A DNA stretch of 64,000 nucleotides from Shigella phage KNP5. This document shows, piece by piece, positions 16,608 to 59,139 of this stretch. Under the pieces are notes generated by a model. That model searched no databases, was not told the origin of the DNA, and saw only the letters and a list, made by a program, of their open reading frames with translations. Position numbers and translations under genes: made by a program. Within the stretch, counting starts at the first letter, position 1, and the number at the start of each line of letters is the position of its first letter. Location of the stretch: the sequence record KX452698; one strand, given 5' to 3'.

Positions 16608-17467
16608 TTATATCGCCATCTTTCCTTTAATTGGCGGGTGAGATACATAGTTGTTAAGAACAAAATTATGCGGCTTTGCGAATTGACTCAACCAAAATAC
16701 CTGCGATTCTGTGTCCCATTCATCAAATTCATCTGGAAATTTTAATTGTAATTCGCATAAATCCATAGGTTCACGACGCAAAATTTCTTTACATTGTTCT
16801 ACGTGATTCATATAGATATGAGTATTACCACCAGAAAATATCAAATCTCCTGGAATAAGATTACACATCTTAGCTACAATATGAACTAACGTAGCATATG
16901 ATGCAATATTAAATGGAAGACCGAGGAAAACATCTACCGAACGTTGATACCACTGCAGATCCAAATAGCCATTACGCACATTAAACTGATAGAACATATG
17001 ACAAGGTGGTAATGCCATTTGCTTAAGTTCTGCCGGATTCCATGCTGAAACAATTTGACGTCTATCATTTGGCAGTTTTTTAATACGTTCAACAACTTCT
17101 ATAATTTGGTCTACGCCACCAAAATCGCGCCACTGTTTTCCATAAATTGGACCAAGTTCACCGCTATGGTATCCTAAATCTTTTGCTTGATTTTCGTAAT
17201 TTTCATCCCAGACTGTTTTGCCTTGAATTAATGAATCATGTTGAATTAATCGCAAATCATTGACATTTGTGCTTCCCGATAAAAACCATATTAGCTCAGC
17301 AATACAGGCTTTCCATGCTAATTTTTTAGTTGTTACCGCAGGAAAACCTTTAGTTAAATCCCAGCGTAATTTAGTACCAAACAAAGCAATTGTTCCTGTG
17401 CCTGTTCGGTCATCGGTTTCGTAACCATTTTCCAGGATATCTTTAATTAAAAATTGGTATTGTTTCA

Positions 17468-17468
<1 letters not shown>
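16608..17468 (-). CDS. td: thymidylate synthase (uninterrupted)
   Basis: ATG at 17468 gives MKQYQ...; active-site region MALPPCHMFYQF; continuous ORF with no group I intron; C-terminal third diverges from T4 as recalled. Confidence 0.9.
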
Positions 17469-18497
<1,029 letters not shown>

Positions 18498-22837: not shown

Positions 22838-22845
22838 TATAAATA
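22838..22845 (+). promoter_or_regulatory. late promoter TATAAATA (gene 34)
   Basis: Exact TATAAATA 35 nt upstream of the gene 34 ATG. Confidence 0.75.
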
Positions 22846-57044: not shown

Positions 57045-57281
57045 TTAACCACCTATTTGTGTAGGCGTAAACATTGCAGCATTCTTAGTTTTCCAATCAG
57101 CTGCATCAGAAACTACGGTAGAATATGCTGCCTTTTCAGAAGGAAAGATCTGATAATGAGAATCTGCGATACGATGCTCGTTAGAATAAATTTCAAACGG
57201 AACAGAAACTTCCATACCTTTAACTTCTTTGCCTTCACCTGCTGGATGAGTAAAGGTCTTGATGTTAACGAAACCACCCAT
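57045..57281 (-). CDS. soc: small outer capsid protein Soc (diverged from T4)
   Basis: 78-aa ORF with AAGGAG Shine-Dalgarno; shares ..VNIKTF..HYQ.FPSEKAAYSTV.. with T4 Soc as recalled; late promoter upstream and terminator downstream. Confidence 0.7.
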   Translation of the reverse strand: MGGFVNIKTFTHPAGEGKEVKGMEVSVPFEIYSNEHRIADSHYQIFPSEKAAYSTVVSDAADWKTKNAAMFTPTQIGG

Positions 57282-57312
57282 AATAAACTCCTTTATTGTT
57301 TAATTACAGGTG

Positions 57313-57320
57313 TATTTATA
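57313..57320 (-). promoter_or_regulatory. late promoter TATAAATA (soc)
   Basis: Plus tatttata = TATAAATA on the minus strand, 32 nt upstream of the soc ATG. Confidence 0.65.
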
Positions 57321-57323
57321 TCA

Positions 57324-57842
57324 TCAATAACCTCGGTCTTGACGAGCGAAGTTTTCAGCATTTTTCAGATAATAAAGTTTAAAGATTTCTTCAGCAGTAA
57401 GACCGAGACCTTGGAACATGTTCAGAACGAAATGAAGAATATCAATCATTTCGAATTTAATTTCCAACTGGTCTTGTGGAGACAAATCAGTAATTAAAGT
57501 TTCACGGCGTTCACCATGCTGTGACTTCCAAGGTTTCCATACAGCAGATGCATCTTTTTCACCATTACTCATACCACCAAGAGAAGTCAGTAGTTCGCGG
57601 AATTCATCATCAATATAATCTTTCTGATTACGCAACCAATCAACAACTTCACCTGCAGTAGCCAAATCATCAGGATGACGGTTATATTCAGGTTTATCTT
57701 TAGCTAAACGAACCTGTAGAGATTTCTGCATATCAAGCATAACCTGCAGCGGGTCTTTTTCATCACCGAGAATATCCCAGTATTCATTTTGAGCTTTATC
57801 AGCGCCTTCAATCAGTTGTGAACATTCATTAAAGTATGCCAT
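57324..57842 (-). CDS. 56: dCTPase/dUTPase gp56
   Basis: ATG at 57842 (AAAGGA Shine-Dalgarno) gives MAYFNECSQLIEGADKAQNEYWDILGDEK... (172 aa; T4 gp56 171 aa). The track ORF starts 31 codons upstream. Confidence 0.8.
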   Translation of the reverse strand: MAYFNECSQLIEGADKAQNEYWDILGDEKDPLQVMLDMQKSLQVRLAKDKPEYNRHPDDLATAGEVVDWLRNQKDYIDDEFRELLTSLGGMSNGEKDASAVWKPWKSQHGERRETLITDLSPQDQLEIKFEMIDILHFVLNMFQGLGLTAEEIFKLYYLKNAENFARQDRGY

Positions 57843-57913
57843 TATTTTTCCTTTCAATTCATGGGTTAGTAGATTAATTATACAATAAATATATAAAGCA
57901 ATAAGGAGGACAT

Positions 57914-58114
57914 ATGGTACAAAAATTAATGGCACTTGTTAATGCCATAAAAGGTAATAAGAAACGTATAGCTTTTACTATTTCTGCTATGGTAGGAATT
58001 TTACTCTGGAATTTTGTTTTATCGCCAATTGCTATTGCTCATGGCGTTAATATTCCAGTAATTACTCTTGATACATTCGTAGATTTAGCATTTGCTTTAG
58101 TTGGGTTAATTTAA
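57914..58114 (+). CDS. small membrane protein on the opposite strand
   Basis: 66-aa ORF with strong AGGAGG Shine-Dalgarno 4 nt before the ATG; one hydrophobic helix; stop codon overlaps the convergent gene 61 stop. Confidence 0.5.
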   Translation: MVQKLMALVNAIKGNKKRIAFTISAMVGILLWNFVLSPIAIAHGVNIPVITLDTFVDLAFALVGLI

Positions 58115-59139
58115 ATCTTAGCATATTTAGATAGCCGCATTTTAGCCATCAACCCTTGAGCAATATTATTTTTCATATATTCCATAATTTGTTTAGGGGT
58201 TGCACCTTCCTTTCTAATCATATCATTAACATCTTTTGATTTCCAGGGGGATTTATCCCAAAACATAACCCTTTCTCCTGCATCAACCAATTTAGTCATT
58301 CGTTTAATAGTGTCAGGGTGACGAGGTTCATTATCTAAAACCCATACACGTCTATCTTTAAATGGAACAATTTCTAGGTCTAATTGACCACCCGTAATAG
58401 CTATACCATTTTCAATAAAAAGTGAATCTATAGGTCCTTCTAGAACATATACATCACCATCTTTGACTCGTTCGACTCCATATATTTTTGTTGCCTCAGG
58501 ATAAGCTTTGATGGTGATATATTTTTGAGGAGCATCTTTCTTTAGTGCACGTCCTTGAAAAGACTCAGCTTTTCCGTTAGCATTATAAATTGGAATAACA
58601 AGACGAGGCTCAGGTATTTCCTTTTTATATGTTCCTGGCGCTATACTATTAACTAATTTAGGCCATTCGGTTGTAAACCAAAGATATTTCCATTTATCCT
58701 TTGGAATACAACGAGCTTTTACATATTTTATAATTGGATGGTCTTCCGCCAATTTATCTAATCTGATGCATGACGGAAGAGATTTAATTATTTTCTTCTC
58801 AGGTTGTTTAGGAAGTTCTTTAGGTTTTTCTACTGGACGACTTTTACCTTTTTCTTTTCTTATTTCAAAGATATACTCACGATATAAATCAGGTTCAAAC
58901 TCCTTTAAATATATTCCGATTGGTGCATGATAGTTGCAGTTATAACAATGAATATTTCCTTCATTATTATCACCATAATACCATCCACGGGCTTTATTTT
59001 GGTCGGTTTTTGAATCTCCACAAACAGGACATCTAAACCGTAATTTAAAAGTTGAACTATTATTTACTTGTGCAAATTTAGGTAAATGAGCCAATGCACG
59101 GTATGCAAACTCATTATCAATCCAAGGTATTGATGACAT
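58111..59139 (-). CDS. 61: DNA primase gp61
   Basis: 342-aa ORF with N-terminal zinc-ribbon cysteines (CPVCGDS...CYNCNYH) and TOPRIM-like region; length equals T4 gp61. Confidence 0.9.
   Translation of the reverse strand: MSSIPWIDNEFAYRALAHLPKFAQVNNSSTFKLRFRCPVCGDSKTDQNKARGWYYGDNNEGNIHCYNCNYHAPIGIYLKEFEPDLYREYIFEIRKEKGKSRPVEKPKELPKQPEKKIIKSLPSCIRLDKLAEDHPIIKYVKARCIPKDKWKYLWFTTEWPKLVNSIAPGTYKKEIPEPRLVIPIYNANGKAESFQGRALKKDAPQKYITIKAYPEATKIYGVERVKDGDVYVLEGPIDSLFIENGIAITGGQLDLEIVPFKDRRVWVLDNEPRHPDTIKRMTKLVDAGERVMFWDKSPWKSKDVNDMIRKEGATPKQIMEYMKNNIAQGLMAKMRLSKYAKI

What the first reader, a model, noticed from the sequence alone, without database searches (positions are those of the whole stretch)
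57843..58114. Plus-strand small membrane ORF in the 56-61 interval where T4 carries dam
Gene 56 (ATG 57842) and gene 61 (stop 58111) are 268 bp apart, and the interval holds a plus-strand 66-aa ORF with a near-consensus AGGAGG Shine-Dalgarno and one hydrophobic helix, oriented against all flanking early genes. My recollection, not verified, is that T4 has the dam methyltransferase between 56 and 61 and segF (gene 69) between soc and 56. Neither is present here. If correct, this phage lacks Dam at the canonical locus and has a different small gene instead.
Basis: partly seen in the sequence, partly recalled or inferred. Interest (0 to 1): 0.5.

Follow-up and report, generated by a model that had tools for sequence, protein, structure and literature searches.

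The report
Conserved small gene dam.1, not a dam replacement
The 66-codon gene between genes 56 and 61 is a small membrane-protein gene of unknown function, named dam.1 in some records, that T4 also carries right next to its dam gene, so it did not replace dam, and lacking dam here is the commoner state among T4's relatives.

Summary
Gene 56 (57324-57842, minus) and gene 61 (58111-59139, minus) are 268 bp apart. A plus-strand 66-aa ORF (57914-58114) with an AAGGAGG ribosome site lies between them. T4 does carry dam between 56 and 61, and segF between soc and 56; neither is here.

T4 has the same ORF (4 of 66 residues differ) between dam and 61. It is unannotated in the T4 reference records but named dam.1 in the T4T and T6 records, and RB69ORF029w in RB69. 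The identical protein occurs both beside dam and in dam-less loci. T6 has the window's exact arrangement. About 64% of Tequatrovirus records lack dam at this site.

dam.1 is a real gene:
- It belongs to PHROG 2024 (unknown function).
- It keeps its position against the primase stop codon in seven genera.
- dN/dS is 0.07-0.39.
- Gaprivervirus carries two tandem copies.
- Every lineage sampled keeps a late-promoter-like NATAAATA 15-22 nt upstream of the start codon.

It most likely encodes a late-expressed, single-pass inner-membrane protein. Its role is unknown. The dam slot is a variable insertion site. This is a known, uncharacterised gene, of low interest.

The parts
57914..58114 (+). dam.1 (also RB69ORF029w, RB32ORF030w; PHROG 2024): a 66-aa small membrane protein, coordinates including the stop codon
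   Evidence: ORF. PHROG 2024 match, E = 5e-31. 94% identical to the T4 ORF, which is named dam.1 in T4T and T6. dN/dS is 0.17 within Tequatrovirus, the lowest of the six frames. Homologues sit at the same position in seven genera.
57903..57909 (+). Shine-Dalgarno sequence AAGGAGG, 4 nt before the ATG
   Evidence: Read directly. A GGAG(G) motif occupies the same place in every lineage examined.
57884..57891 (+). Predicted T4-type late promoter AATAAATA (consensus TATAAATA, here with A at -13). The predicted transcription start is near 57897.
   Evidence: ATAAATA lies 15-22 nt upstream of the start codon in all 19 subfamily-A loci and 5 subfamily-B loci examined, even where the flanks are unalignable. 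The motif occurs only 14 times in the window against 34.8 +/- 5.5 expected. Other copies precede genes 34, 36, t and soc. A(-13) is the commonest natural variant, at 9 of 50 T4 late promoters (PMC2988020). Promoter activity has not been tested.
57877..57901 (-). Predicted MotA-dependent middle promoter for gene 56. On the minus strand the MotA box TTGCTTTA is at 57901-57894 and the -10 TATAAT is at 57882-57877. It is the counterpart of T4 P(M) 16.53, which makes the oriA primer.
   Evidence: Sequence. It aligns with the T4 region that record X01416 annotates as mot-box and -10 of P(M) 16.53. fPS-2 annotates a predicted middle promoter at the same place.
57919..57948 (-). Terminator-like hairpin on the minus strand (ATGGCATTAACAAGTGCCAT followed by TAATTTTTGT), inside codons 2-12 of dam.1. 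It probably attenuates transcripts coming from gene 61.
   Evidence: Consensus scan. The fPS-2 record annotates a terminator at the same place. It is not conserved in Mosigvirus, read by eye.
57324..57842 (-). Gene 56 (dCTPase), the left neighbour
   Evidence: 73% identical to T4 gp56 and 80-84% identical to the Mosigvirus and Gaprivervirus proteins.
58111..59139 (-). Gene 61 (DNA primase), the right neighbour. It converges on dam.1, and the two stop codons overlap by 4 nt.
   Evidence: 98% identical to T4 gp61.
57045..57281 (-). soc (small outer capsid protein), with its late promoter TATAAATA at 57313-57320 (minus strand). No segF lies between soc and gene 56.
   Evidence: tblastn with SegF finds nothing.

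Best explanation
The ORF is the T-even gene dam.1 (PHROG 2024). It is a genuine, conserved protein-coding gene that always sits on the late (clockwise) strand, with its stop codon against the stop codon of the primase gene 61. It is independent of dam.

What sits between the gene 56 promoter region and the dam.1 promoter differs between phages:
- nothing, in this window and in T6;
- dam alone, in T4;
- a restriction-endonuclease-like gene plus dam, in T2.

In fPS-2 a homing-endonuclease gene lies between gene 56 and the promoter region. The window therefore shows the plain, commoner arrangement rather than a replacement.

Inferred mechanism:
1. After replication starts, gp55-RNA polymerase initiates at AATAAATA (57884-57891), giving a leader of about 17 nt with a strong ribosome site.
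2. The 66-aa product inserts into the inner membrane. Its basic N-terminal segment (KGNKKR) stays in the cytoplasm, and residues 19-42 span the membrane.
3. The family-invariant residues W32, N33, P38, G44 and P48 lie in the outer half of the membrane helix and the loop after it. A short amphipathic C-terminal helix sits at the periplasmic face.
4. The transcript has no terminator and runs antisense into gene 61.

Status of each step: coding status, family membership, synteny and independence from dam are shown. The late promoter and the membrane topology are inferred from sequence. The biological role is unknown. My best guess, at about 20%, is a late envelope function such as control of lysis timing or superinfection, exerted by binding a membrane partner through the conserved motif.
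For: The same ORF is in T4 next to dam, and it is named dam.1 in T4T and T6. The identical protein occurs with dam (L034) and without it (L033, L035-L038).

Spread and family:
- tblastn finds it in 691 phage records, intact in 685. Of these, 190 records match at under 60% identity; the Mosigvirus and Gaprivervirus examples fetched lie against the primase gene.
- A second subfamily occurs in 130 records. Loci fetched from Dhakavirus, Marfavirus and Kanagawavirus, and a second tandem copy in Gaprivervirus, are all plus-strand and overlap the primase stop.
- All members tested match PHROG 2024.

Selection:
- dN/dS is 0.17 in Tequatrovirus, the lowest of six frames.
- It is 0.11-0.13 in Mosigvirus, 0.07 in Kanagawavirus and 0.39 in Gaprivervirus, with synonymous sites saturated between genera.
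- W, N, P, G and P are invariant across the family, while the first half of the membrane helix varies freely.

Promoter:
- NATAAATA is kept 15-22 nt upstream of the ATG in every lineage, and is a perfect TATAAATA in Marfa, Q7622 and CIP9.
- Homology between dam-bearing and dam-less loci resumes exactly at this motif.
- The motif is depleted in the window, and its other copies mark genes 34, 36, t and soc.
- The A(-13) variant is common (PMC2988020).

Membrane: hydropathy; AlphaFold2 helices 2-12, 16-42 and 52-65 at mean pLDDT 76.6; a transmembrane segment at residues 21-41 predicted for RB69ORF029w (PMC1524935 supplement).

Dam frequency: T4-type Dam is in about 182 records, against about 501 Tequatrovirus records with the ORF. 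The dam-less interval is covered in full in 333 records.
Against: - No transcript, peptide or phenotype for this gene was found in the searchable literature.
- The late-promoter HMM list of Nolan et al. 2006 for RB69 has no site upstream of RB69ORF029w.
- The first promoter position is A, G or C rather than T in most lineages.
- The family is narrow. A profile search of 1.84 billion representative proteins found only 7 hits. There are no Pfam, NCBIfam or PDB relatives, so nothing supports any specific function.
- Within Tequatrovirus there are only 25 variable sites, so that dN/dS estimate alone is weak.
- The C-terminal helix could instead re-enter the membrane, so the topology is uncertain.
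- The minus strand of the same DNA carries a promoter and a terminator-like hairpin, which also constrain part of the sequence.
Confidence: 0.8

Rival explanations
1. One reading: in this phage a different small gene has taken the place of dam at the canonical locus.
For: dam is absent from the 56-61 interval, and the ORF is the only coding candidate there. The T4 reference annotation shows no ORF beside dam, which makes the ORF look new.
Against: T4 carries the same ORF between dam and 61, annotated as dam.1 in T4T. The identical protein is found beside dam in L034. T2, HY03 and G3G7 have both genes. T6 has the window's arrangement, with dam.1 annotated.
Confidence: 0.01
2. The ORF is accidental. 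The interval would be conserved only for its non-coding roles: the middle promoter of gene 56 (the oriA primer promoter), a terminator after gene 61, or a late antisense RNA against the primase message.
For: A MotA-type promoter and a terminator-like hairpin lie on the minus strand of the same DNA. The plus-strand transcript must run antisense into gene 61, because the stop codons overlap and no plus-strand terminator follows. There is no experimental evidence for the protein.
Against: - The reading frame, the start codon and the ribosome site are kept in seven genera, at only 51-63% nucleotide identity and 23-55% amino-acid identity.
- dN/dS is 0.07-0.39 in four independent clades, and lowest in this frame.
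- The pattern of conservation is that of a protein: a variable lipid-facing helix and an invariant W-N...P...G...P motif.
- Gaprivervirus has two tandem paralogous copies.
- The hairpin is not conserved outside Tequatrovirus.
- No Rfam family matches.
Confidence: 0.05
3. The protein is a holin or pinholin-type lysis protein, as one UniProt entry for a family member is labelled.
For: - It is small and membrane-embedded with two hydrophobic helices, like class II holins.
- Its predicted late promoter and ribosome site are of the same form as those of the holin gene t in this window: AATAAATA then AAGGAGG.
- A member from phage OE5505 is labelled 'Holin' in UniProt.
Against: - No holin family in Pfam, NCBIfam or PHROGs matches.
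- The C-terminus is hydrophobic (ALVGLI), not the charged tail typical of holins.
- The gene is not near an endolysin or spanin gene.
- From established knowledge, T4 already has a complete lysis set: t, e, rI, rIII, pseT.2 and pseT.3.
- The UniProt label is unsupported by any paper found.
Confidence: 0.07

Closest known systems
dam.1 of T4T (HM137666, T4Tp032) and T6 (MH550421); RB69ORF029w; RB32ORF030w; PHROG 2024
   Same: It is the same gene: 94% identical to the T4 copy, same strand, same overlap with the primase stop codon, same upstream motif and ribosome site. The T6 locus (56, dam.1, 61, no dam) is the window's arrangement.
   Different: Nothing substantive. The window copy differs from T4's by four conservative substitutions. 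T6 is annotated from the internal ATG, giving 61 aa.
T4 dam (Dam family GATC adenine methyltransferase)
   Same: Only the map position: both lie between genes 56 and 61.
   Different: There is no sequence relation. dam is on the opposite strand, encodes 259 aa and is absent here. It occupies a variable slot next to dam.1.
soc, a T4 late gene embedded in an early region
   Same: Both are small genes inside the early gene block with a TATAAATA-type motif and a strong ribosome site just upstream. soc's motif is at 57313-57320 in this window.
   Different: soc is on the early strand and encodes a soluble capsid decoration protein with known function and structure. dam.1 is on the opposite strand and is predicted to be membrane-bound.
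Small T4 inner-membrane proteins (Imm, Ac) and class II holins such as S21
   Same: Similar size, one or two hydrophobic helices, and a basic cytoplasmic segment before the first helix. This resemblance is drawn from memory of those proteins.
   Different: No detectable sequence or fold relation. Imm is an early gene. The holin features (charged C-terminus, lysis cassette) are not met.

Membership tests
dam.1 / PHROG 2024 | Significant match to the family profile | tested here: met
   phrog_2024 matches at E = 5.4e-31 over residues 2-66. Subfamily B members also match it, at E = 1.7e-15 to 6.5e-28.
dam.1 / PHROG 2024 | Position and orientation: on the strand opposite the early genes, between gene 56 and the primase gene, with the stop codon overlapping the primase stop | tested here: met
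   Window ORF 57914-58114 against gene 61 at 58111-59139. The layout is the same in T4, T2, T6, RB69, ST0, VR25, JS98, Marfa, Q7622 and CIP9. In PEi26 the unannotated ORF overlaps the primase stop the same way.
dam.1 / PHROG 2024 | Length of 61-69 aa with a basic cluster, one hydrophobic helix, and the invariant motif W-N-x4-P-x5-G-x3-P | tested here: met
   Family alignment of 13 sequences from seven genera. The window has W32, N33, P38, G44 and P48.
T4 late genes | TATAAATA at -13 to -6, about 10 bp upstream of the transcription start, with no -35 element | tested here: inconclusive
   AATAAATA at 57884-57891 is a 7-of-8 match, with the commonest natural deviation, A(-13) (PMC2988020). It is conserved in all lineages, and the motif is depleted elsewhere in the window. 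However, the Nolan et al. HMM list did not call it in RB69, and activity is untested.
T4 late genes | Transcription that depends on gp55, gp33 and gp45 and appears after DNA replication starts | not testable with these tools
   This needs RNA from infected cells, with and without a gene 55 mutation.
Holins | Match to a known holin family, or a location in a lysis cassette next to an endolysin | tested here: not met
   No holin family matches in Pfam, NCBIfam or PHROGs. The neighbours are the dCTPase and primase genes.
Holins | A hydrophilic, charged C-terminal tail after the last membrane helix | tested here: not met
   The C-terminus is ...DLAFALVGLI, with no basic residue after position 18.
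Holins | Lethal membrane permeabilisation on expression | not testable with these tools
   This needs an experiment.
Dam (MethyltransfD12) at the 56-61 locus | An ORF homologous to T4 Dam with a DPPY motif | tested here: not met
   tblastn with T4 Dam gives a best E-value of 0.43 in the window and 0.98 in the KNP1 record. The few [DNS]PP[YFW] hits lie in unrelated frames, and the two inside the window lack an FxGxG motif.

The most novel reading that the evidence does not exclude
dam.1 may be an overlooked late-expressed inner-membrane protein of the T-even phages that acts on the cell envelope late in infection, for example on lysis timing, lysis inhibition or exclusion of superinfecting phage. 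Because it is absent from the T4 reference annotation (NC_000866, AF158101), studies that rely on that gene list would not include it.
Probability: 0.2. Interest if true: 0.5.

Novelty: already known. Interest (0 to 1): 0.17.

Why it matters
The practical value is a correction. The apparent 'new gene in place of dam' comes from the T4 reference annotation omitting dam.1, a gene that T4T, T6, RB69 and hundreds of other records annotate.

Two modest points follow:
1. A gene conserved under purifying selection across seven genera of T4 relatives, probably late-expressed and membrane-bound, is missing from the reference gene list of the best-studied phage. It has no published function that I could find.
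2. The DNA between the gene 56 promoter and dam.1 is a small insertion hot spot. It holds nothing, dam, or a restriction-enzyme-like gene plus dam. That fits dam being an accessory, mobile-looking cassette rather than a fixed part of the T-even genome.

Neither point would surprise a T4 specialist.

Tried and rejected
- Function by homology: Pfam, NCBIfam, Foldseek against the PDB and against viral models, and a profile search of 1.84 billion representative proteins gave nothing beyond the family itself. The 'Holin' label on one UniProt entry has no support.
- The AlphaFold database (afdb50) fold library was not available.
- Rfam gave only two sub-threshold snoRNA hits, which are noise.
- Literature searches for dam.1, RB32ORF030w, RB69ORF029w, T4Tp032, the protein accession numbers and phrog_2024 found no paper. 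Searches for T4 ribosome profiling or transcription-start maps found nothing relevant. Miller et al. 2003 (PMC150520) is not held.
- The search for related loci in the viral contig collection returned only 10 loci, so the dN/dS estimates rest on 12 distinct Tequatrovirus sequences plus pairs from other genera.
- Karamvirus CC31 was checked as a possible host of a remote homologue. It has no plus-strand ORF at the site; a 94-aa minus-strand gene sits there instead.
- I considered whether a dam gene could hide in the N-runs of the KNP1 record. The window fills all of the runs within its span and has no Dam. The remaining runs are each under 300 nt.
- No sigma-70-type promoter was found on the plus strand upstream of the ORF, so an early plus-strand transcript seems unlikely.

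Full report
**What is in the window**

- soc is at 57045-57281, gene 56 at 57324-57842 and gene 61 at 58111-59139, all on the minus strand.
- The 268-bp interval between 56 and 61 holds one plus-strand ORF, 57914-58114 (ATG start, 66 aa).
- AAGGAGG lies 4 nt before the ATG.
- The ORF's stop overlaps the primase stop by 4 nt.

The window is 99.9% identical to Escherichia phage KNP1 (KX452694, species Tequatrovirus pss1). It is not that record: it contains no N, and it fills the record's gaps within its span.

The recollection is right. In NC_000866, dam (16846-17625) lies between 56 and 61, and segF lies between soc and 56. Neither is here.
- The soc-56 gap in the window is 42 bp.
- tblastn with T4 Dam gives nothing better than E = 0.43 in the window and 0.98 in KNP1. 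SegF gives 0.53 in KNP1.
- The few [DNS]PP[YFW] motifs in long open frames lie in unrelated sequences. The two inside the window lack an FxGxG motif.
- The KNP1 gaps outside the window are each under 300 nt, too short to hide a 780-bp gene.

T4 has a 309-bp unannotated gap between dam and gene 61. That gap contains the same ORF at 17738-17938 on the plus strand, with 4 of 66 residues different, all conservative.
- The ORF is absent from the annotation of NC_000866, AF158101 and several other T4 records.
- It is annotated as 'dam.1' in T4T (HM137666) and T6 (MH550421), as RB69ORF029w in RB69, as RB32ORF030w by transfer in vB_SsoM_113, and as 'hypothetical protein' in hundreds of other records.
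- A look-up of the exact window protein found it both beside dam (L034: a MethyltransfD12 gene plus a 186-aa ORF) and in dam-less loci (L033, L035-L038).
- T6 has precisely the window's arrangement: 56, dam.1, 61.

Dam-less is the commoner state.
- About 501 Tequatrovirus records carry the ORF at 80% identity or more.
- T4-type Dam at 90% identity or more is in about 182 records.
- The dam-less 268-bp interval is covered in full in 333 records.
- T4's own dam-61 interval is covered in full in 180 records.

**The variable slot**

Alignments show two constant modules.
- The left module is the gene 56 ribosome site plus a MotA-type middle promoter. On the minus strand of the window, TTGCTTTA is at 57901-57894, followed by 11 nt and then TATAAT at 57882-57877. 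This is the counterpart of T4 P(M) 16.53, the oriA primer promoter, as annotated in X01416.
- The right module begins exactly at ATAAATA upstream of the ORF.

What lies between the two modules differs: nothing (window, T6), dam (T4), or a 181-186-aa gene plus dam (T2, HY03, G3G7, L034). In fPS-2 a homing-endonuclease gene sits between gene 56 and the promoter module. In the dam-less form the plus-strand ATAAATA lies inside the spacer of the minus-strand middle promoter. Two divergent promoters and two ribosome sites therefore share 71 bp.

**Is the ORF a real gene?**

Yes, for five reasons.
1. It belongs to PHROG 2024 (E = 5e-31).
2. tblastn finds it in 691 phage records, intact in 685. Of these, 190 records match at under 60% identity; the Mosigvirus and Gaprivervirus examples fetched lie against the primase gene.
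3. Gaprivervirus VR25 has a second, tandem, divergent copy. That copy defines a second subfamily, found in 130 records. Loci fetched from Dhakavirus (JS98, unannotated there), Marfavirus and Kanagawavirus have the same strand and the same overlap with the primase stop. The subfamily members tested (VR25, JS98 and CIP9) also match PHROG 2024.
4. dN/dS is 0.17 among 12 distinct Tequatrovirus sequences, the lowest of the six frames. It is 0.11-0.13 in Mosigvirus, 0.07 in Kanagawavirus and 0.39 in Gaprivervirus. Synonymous sites are saturated between genera, while amino-acid identity stays at 46-55% within subfamily A.
5. Conservation has the shape of a protein. The first half of the hydrophobic helix varies freely. 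W32, N33, P38, G44 and P48 are invariant across seven genera, and the basic cluster before the helix is kept.

The family is narrow. A profile search of 1.84 billion representative proteins found 7 hits. No Pfam, NCBIfam or PDB relative exists.

**Expression**

Every lineage keeps NATAAATA 15-22 nt upstream of the start codon, followed by GGAG(G). This holds even where the surrounding sequence cannot be aligned.
- It is AATAAATA in the window and in Mosigvirus and Dhakavirus.
- It is GATAAATA in T4 and T2.
- It is CATAAATA in Gaprivervirus and PEi26.
- It is a perfect TATAAATA in Marfa, Q7622 and CIP9.

The T4 late promoter is TATAAATA at -13 to -6. Of 50 listed sites, 32 are perfect and 9 have A at -13 (PMC2988020). 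The -13 position is poorly conserved in T4 relatives (PMC1524935).

In the window ATAAATA is strongly avoided: 14 copies on both strands against 34.8 +/- 5.5 in shuffles. Five of the 14 sit 18-34 nt upstream of ORFs: genes 34, 36, the holin gene t, soc and this ORF. The t gene has the same AATAAATA and AAGGAGG form.

I therefore infer a late, gp55-dependent transcript starting near 57897. Three points count against this:
- The RB69 late-promoter list of Nolan et al. has no site here.
- No sigma-70-like plus-strand promoter is present either.
- No expression data were found.

The transcript has no terminator before it enters gene 61 in antisense.

**The product**

Hydropathy gives one clear membrane span, residues 19-42. 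It is preceded by an amphipathic helix and KGNKKR, and followed by the loop HGVNIP and a 14-17-residue hydrophobic, amphipathic helix with two Asp residues. AlphaFold2, using the family alignment, gives helices 2-12, 16-42 and 52-65 at mean pLDDT 76.6. Nolan et al. predicted a membrane segment at residues 21-41 for RB69ORF029w.

By the positive-inside rule, the N-terminus is cytoplasmic. The invariant motif then lies in the outer leaflet and the periplasmic loop.

Function is unknown. The 'Holin' label on one UniProt entry has no support: no holin family matches, the C-terminus is hydrophobic, and there is no lysis cassette. My best guess is a late envelope-related role through binding a membrane partner, at about 20%.

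**Rivals**

- 'Replacement of dam' is refuted.
- 'Accidental ORF in a regulatory or antisense region' is unlikely (about 5%), given frame conservation at 51-63% nucleotide identity, the dN/dS values, the tandem paralogue and the protein-like conservation pattern. The minus-strand promoter and the terminator-like hairpin at 57948-57929 are real overlapping constraints.
- 'Holin' is about 7%.

**Verdict**

This is a known, uncharacterised gene in the commoner locus arrangement, and of low interest. The residual interest is that the T4 reference annotation omits a conserved, probably late, membrane-protein gene.

Noticed in passing
[not shown]
   Followed up: partly
L004 2995-3192 and 3201-3401 (VR25); also L015, L016: Gaprivervirus carries two tandem dam.1 paralogues, only about 23% identical to each other, 8 nt apart. 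The second has its own weak ribosome site and no promoter motif of its own. The second type is the only copy in Dhakavirus, Marfavirus and Kanagawavirus.
   Followed up: partly
window, whole; copies at 22839, 27909, 32732, 57313-57320 (minus) and 57885: ATAAATA is depleted about 2.5-fold in the window (14 copies against 34.8 +/- 5.5 expected). Five of the 14 copies sit just upstream of ORFs: genes 34, 36, t, soc and dam.1. The motif seems to be avoided where it is not used as a late promoter.
   Followed up: partly
window 57045-57842 (soc and gene 56): The window's Soc and gp56 are closer to those of Mosigvirus and Gaprivervirus (Soc 95% and 83%; gp56 80% and 84%) than to T4's (Soc 44%, gp56 73%). 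gp61 next door is 98% identical to T4's. T4 is the outlier, and it is also the one that carries segF between these two genes.
   Followed up: no
T4 NC_000866 17738-17938 (L001 4739-4939); T2 NC_054931 (L020 2501-2701); JS98 EF469154 (L026 1501-1701); PEi26 AP014715 (L030 1486-1671): dam.1 is left unannotated in several reference records (T4, T2, JS98, PEi26), although the ORF is intact there.
   Followed up: yes
L025 5821-6105 (minus), Karamvirus CC31: CC31 has no dam.1 at the site. A 94-aa minus-strand gene, labelled nucleoside triphosphate pyrophosphohydrolase, sits between 56 and 61 instead. Marfa, and the Kanagawavirus phages (76-97-aa genes not compared with CC31's), have a similar small minus-strand gene plus dam.1.
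   Followed up: no
window 57919-57948 (minus): A terminator-like hairpin with a T-run lies on the minus strand, inside the first 12 codons of dam.1, about 165 nt downstream of the gene 61 stop. The fPS-2 record annotates the same feature. The same bases can form a hairpin in the dam.1 message.
   Followed up: no
window against KX452694 (KNP1): The window is not the KNP1 record itself. It is 99.9% identical, has no N, and fills all of KNP1's N-runs within the overlap. KNP1 is flagged UNVERIFIED and has 13 N-runs totalling 2804 nt.
   Followed up: yes
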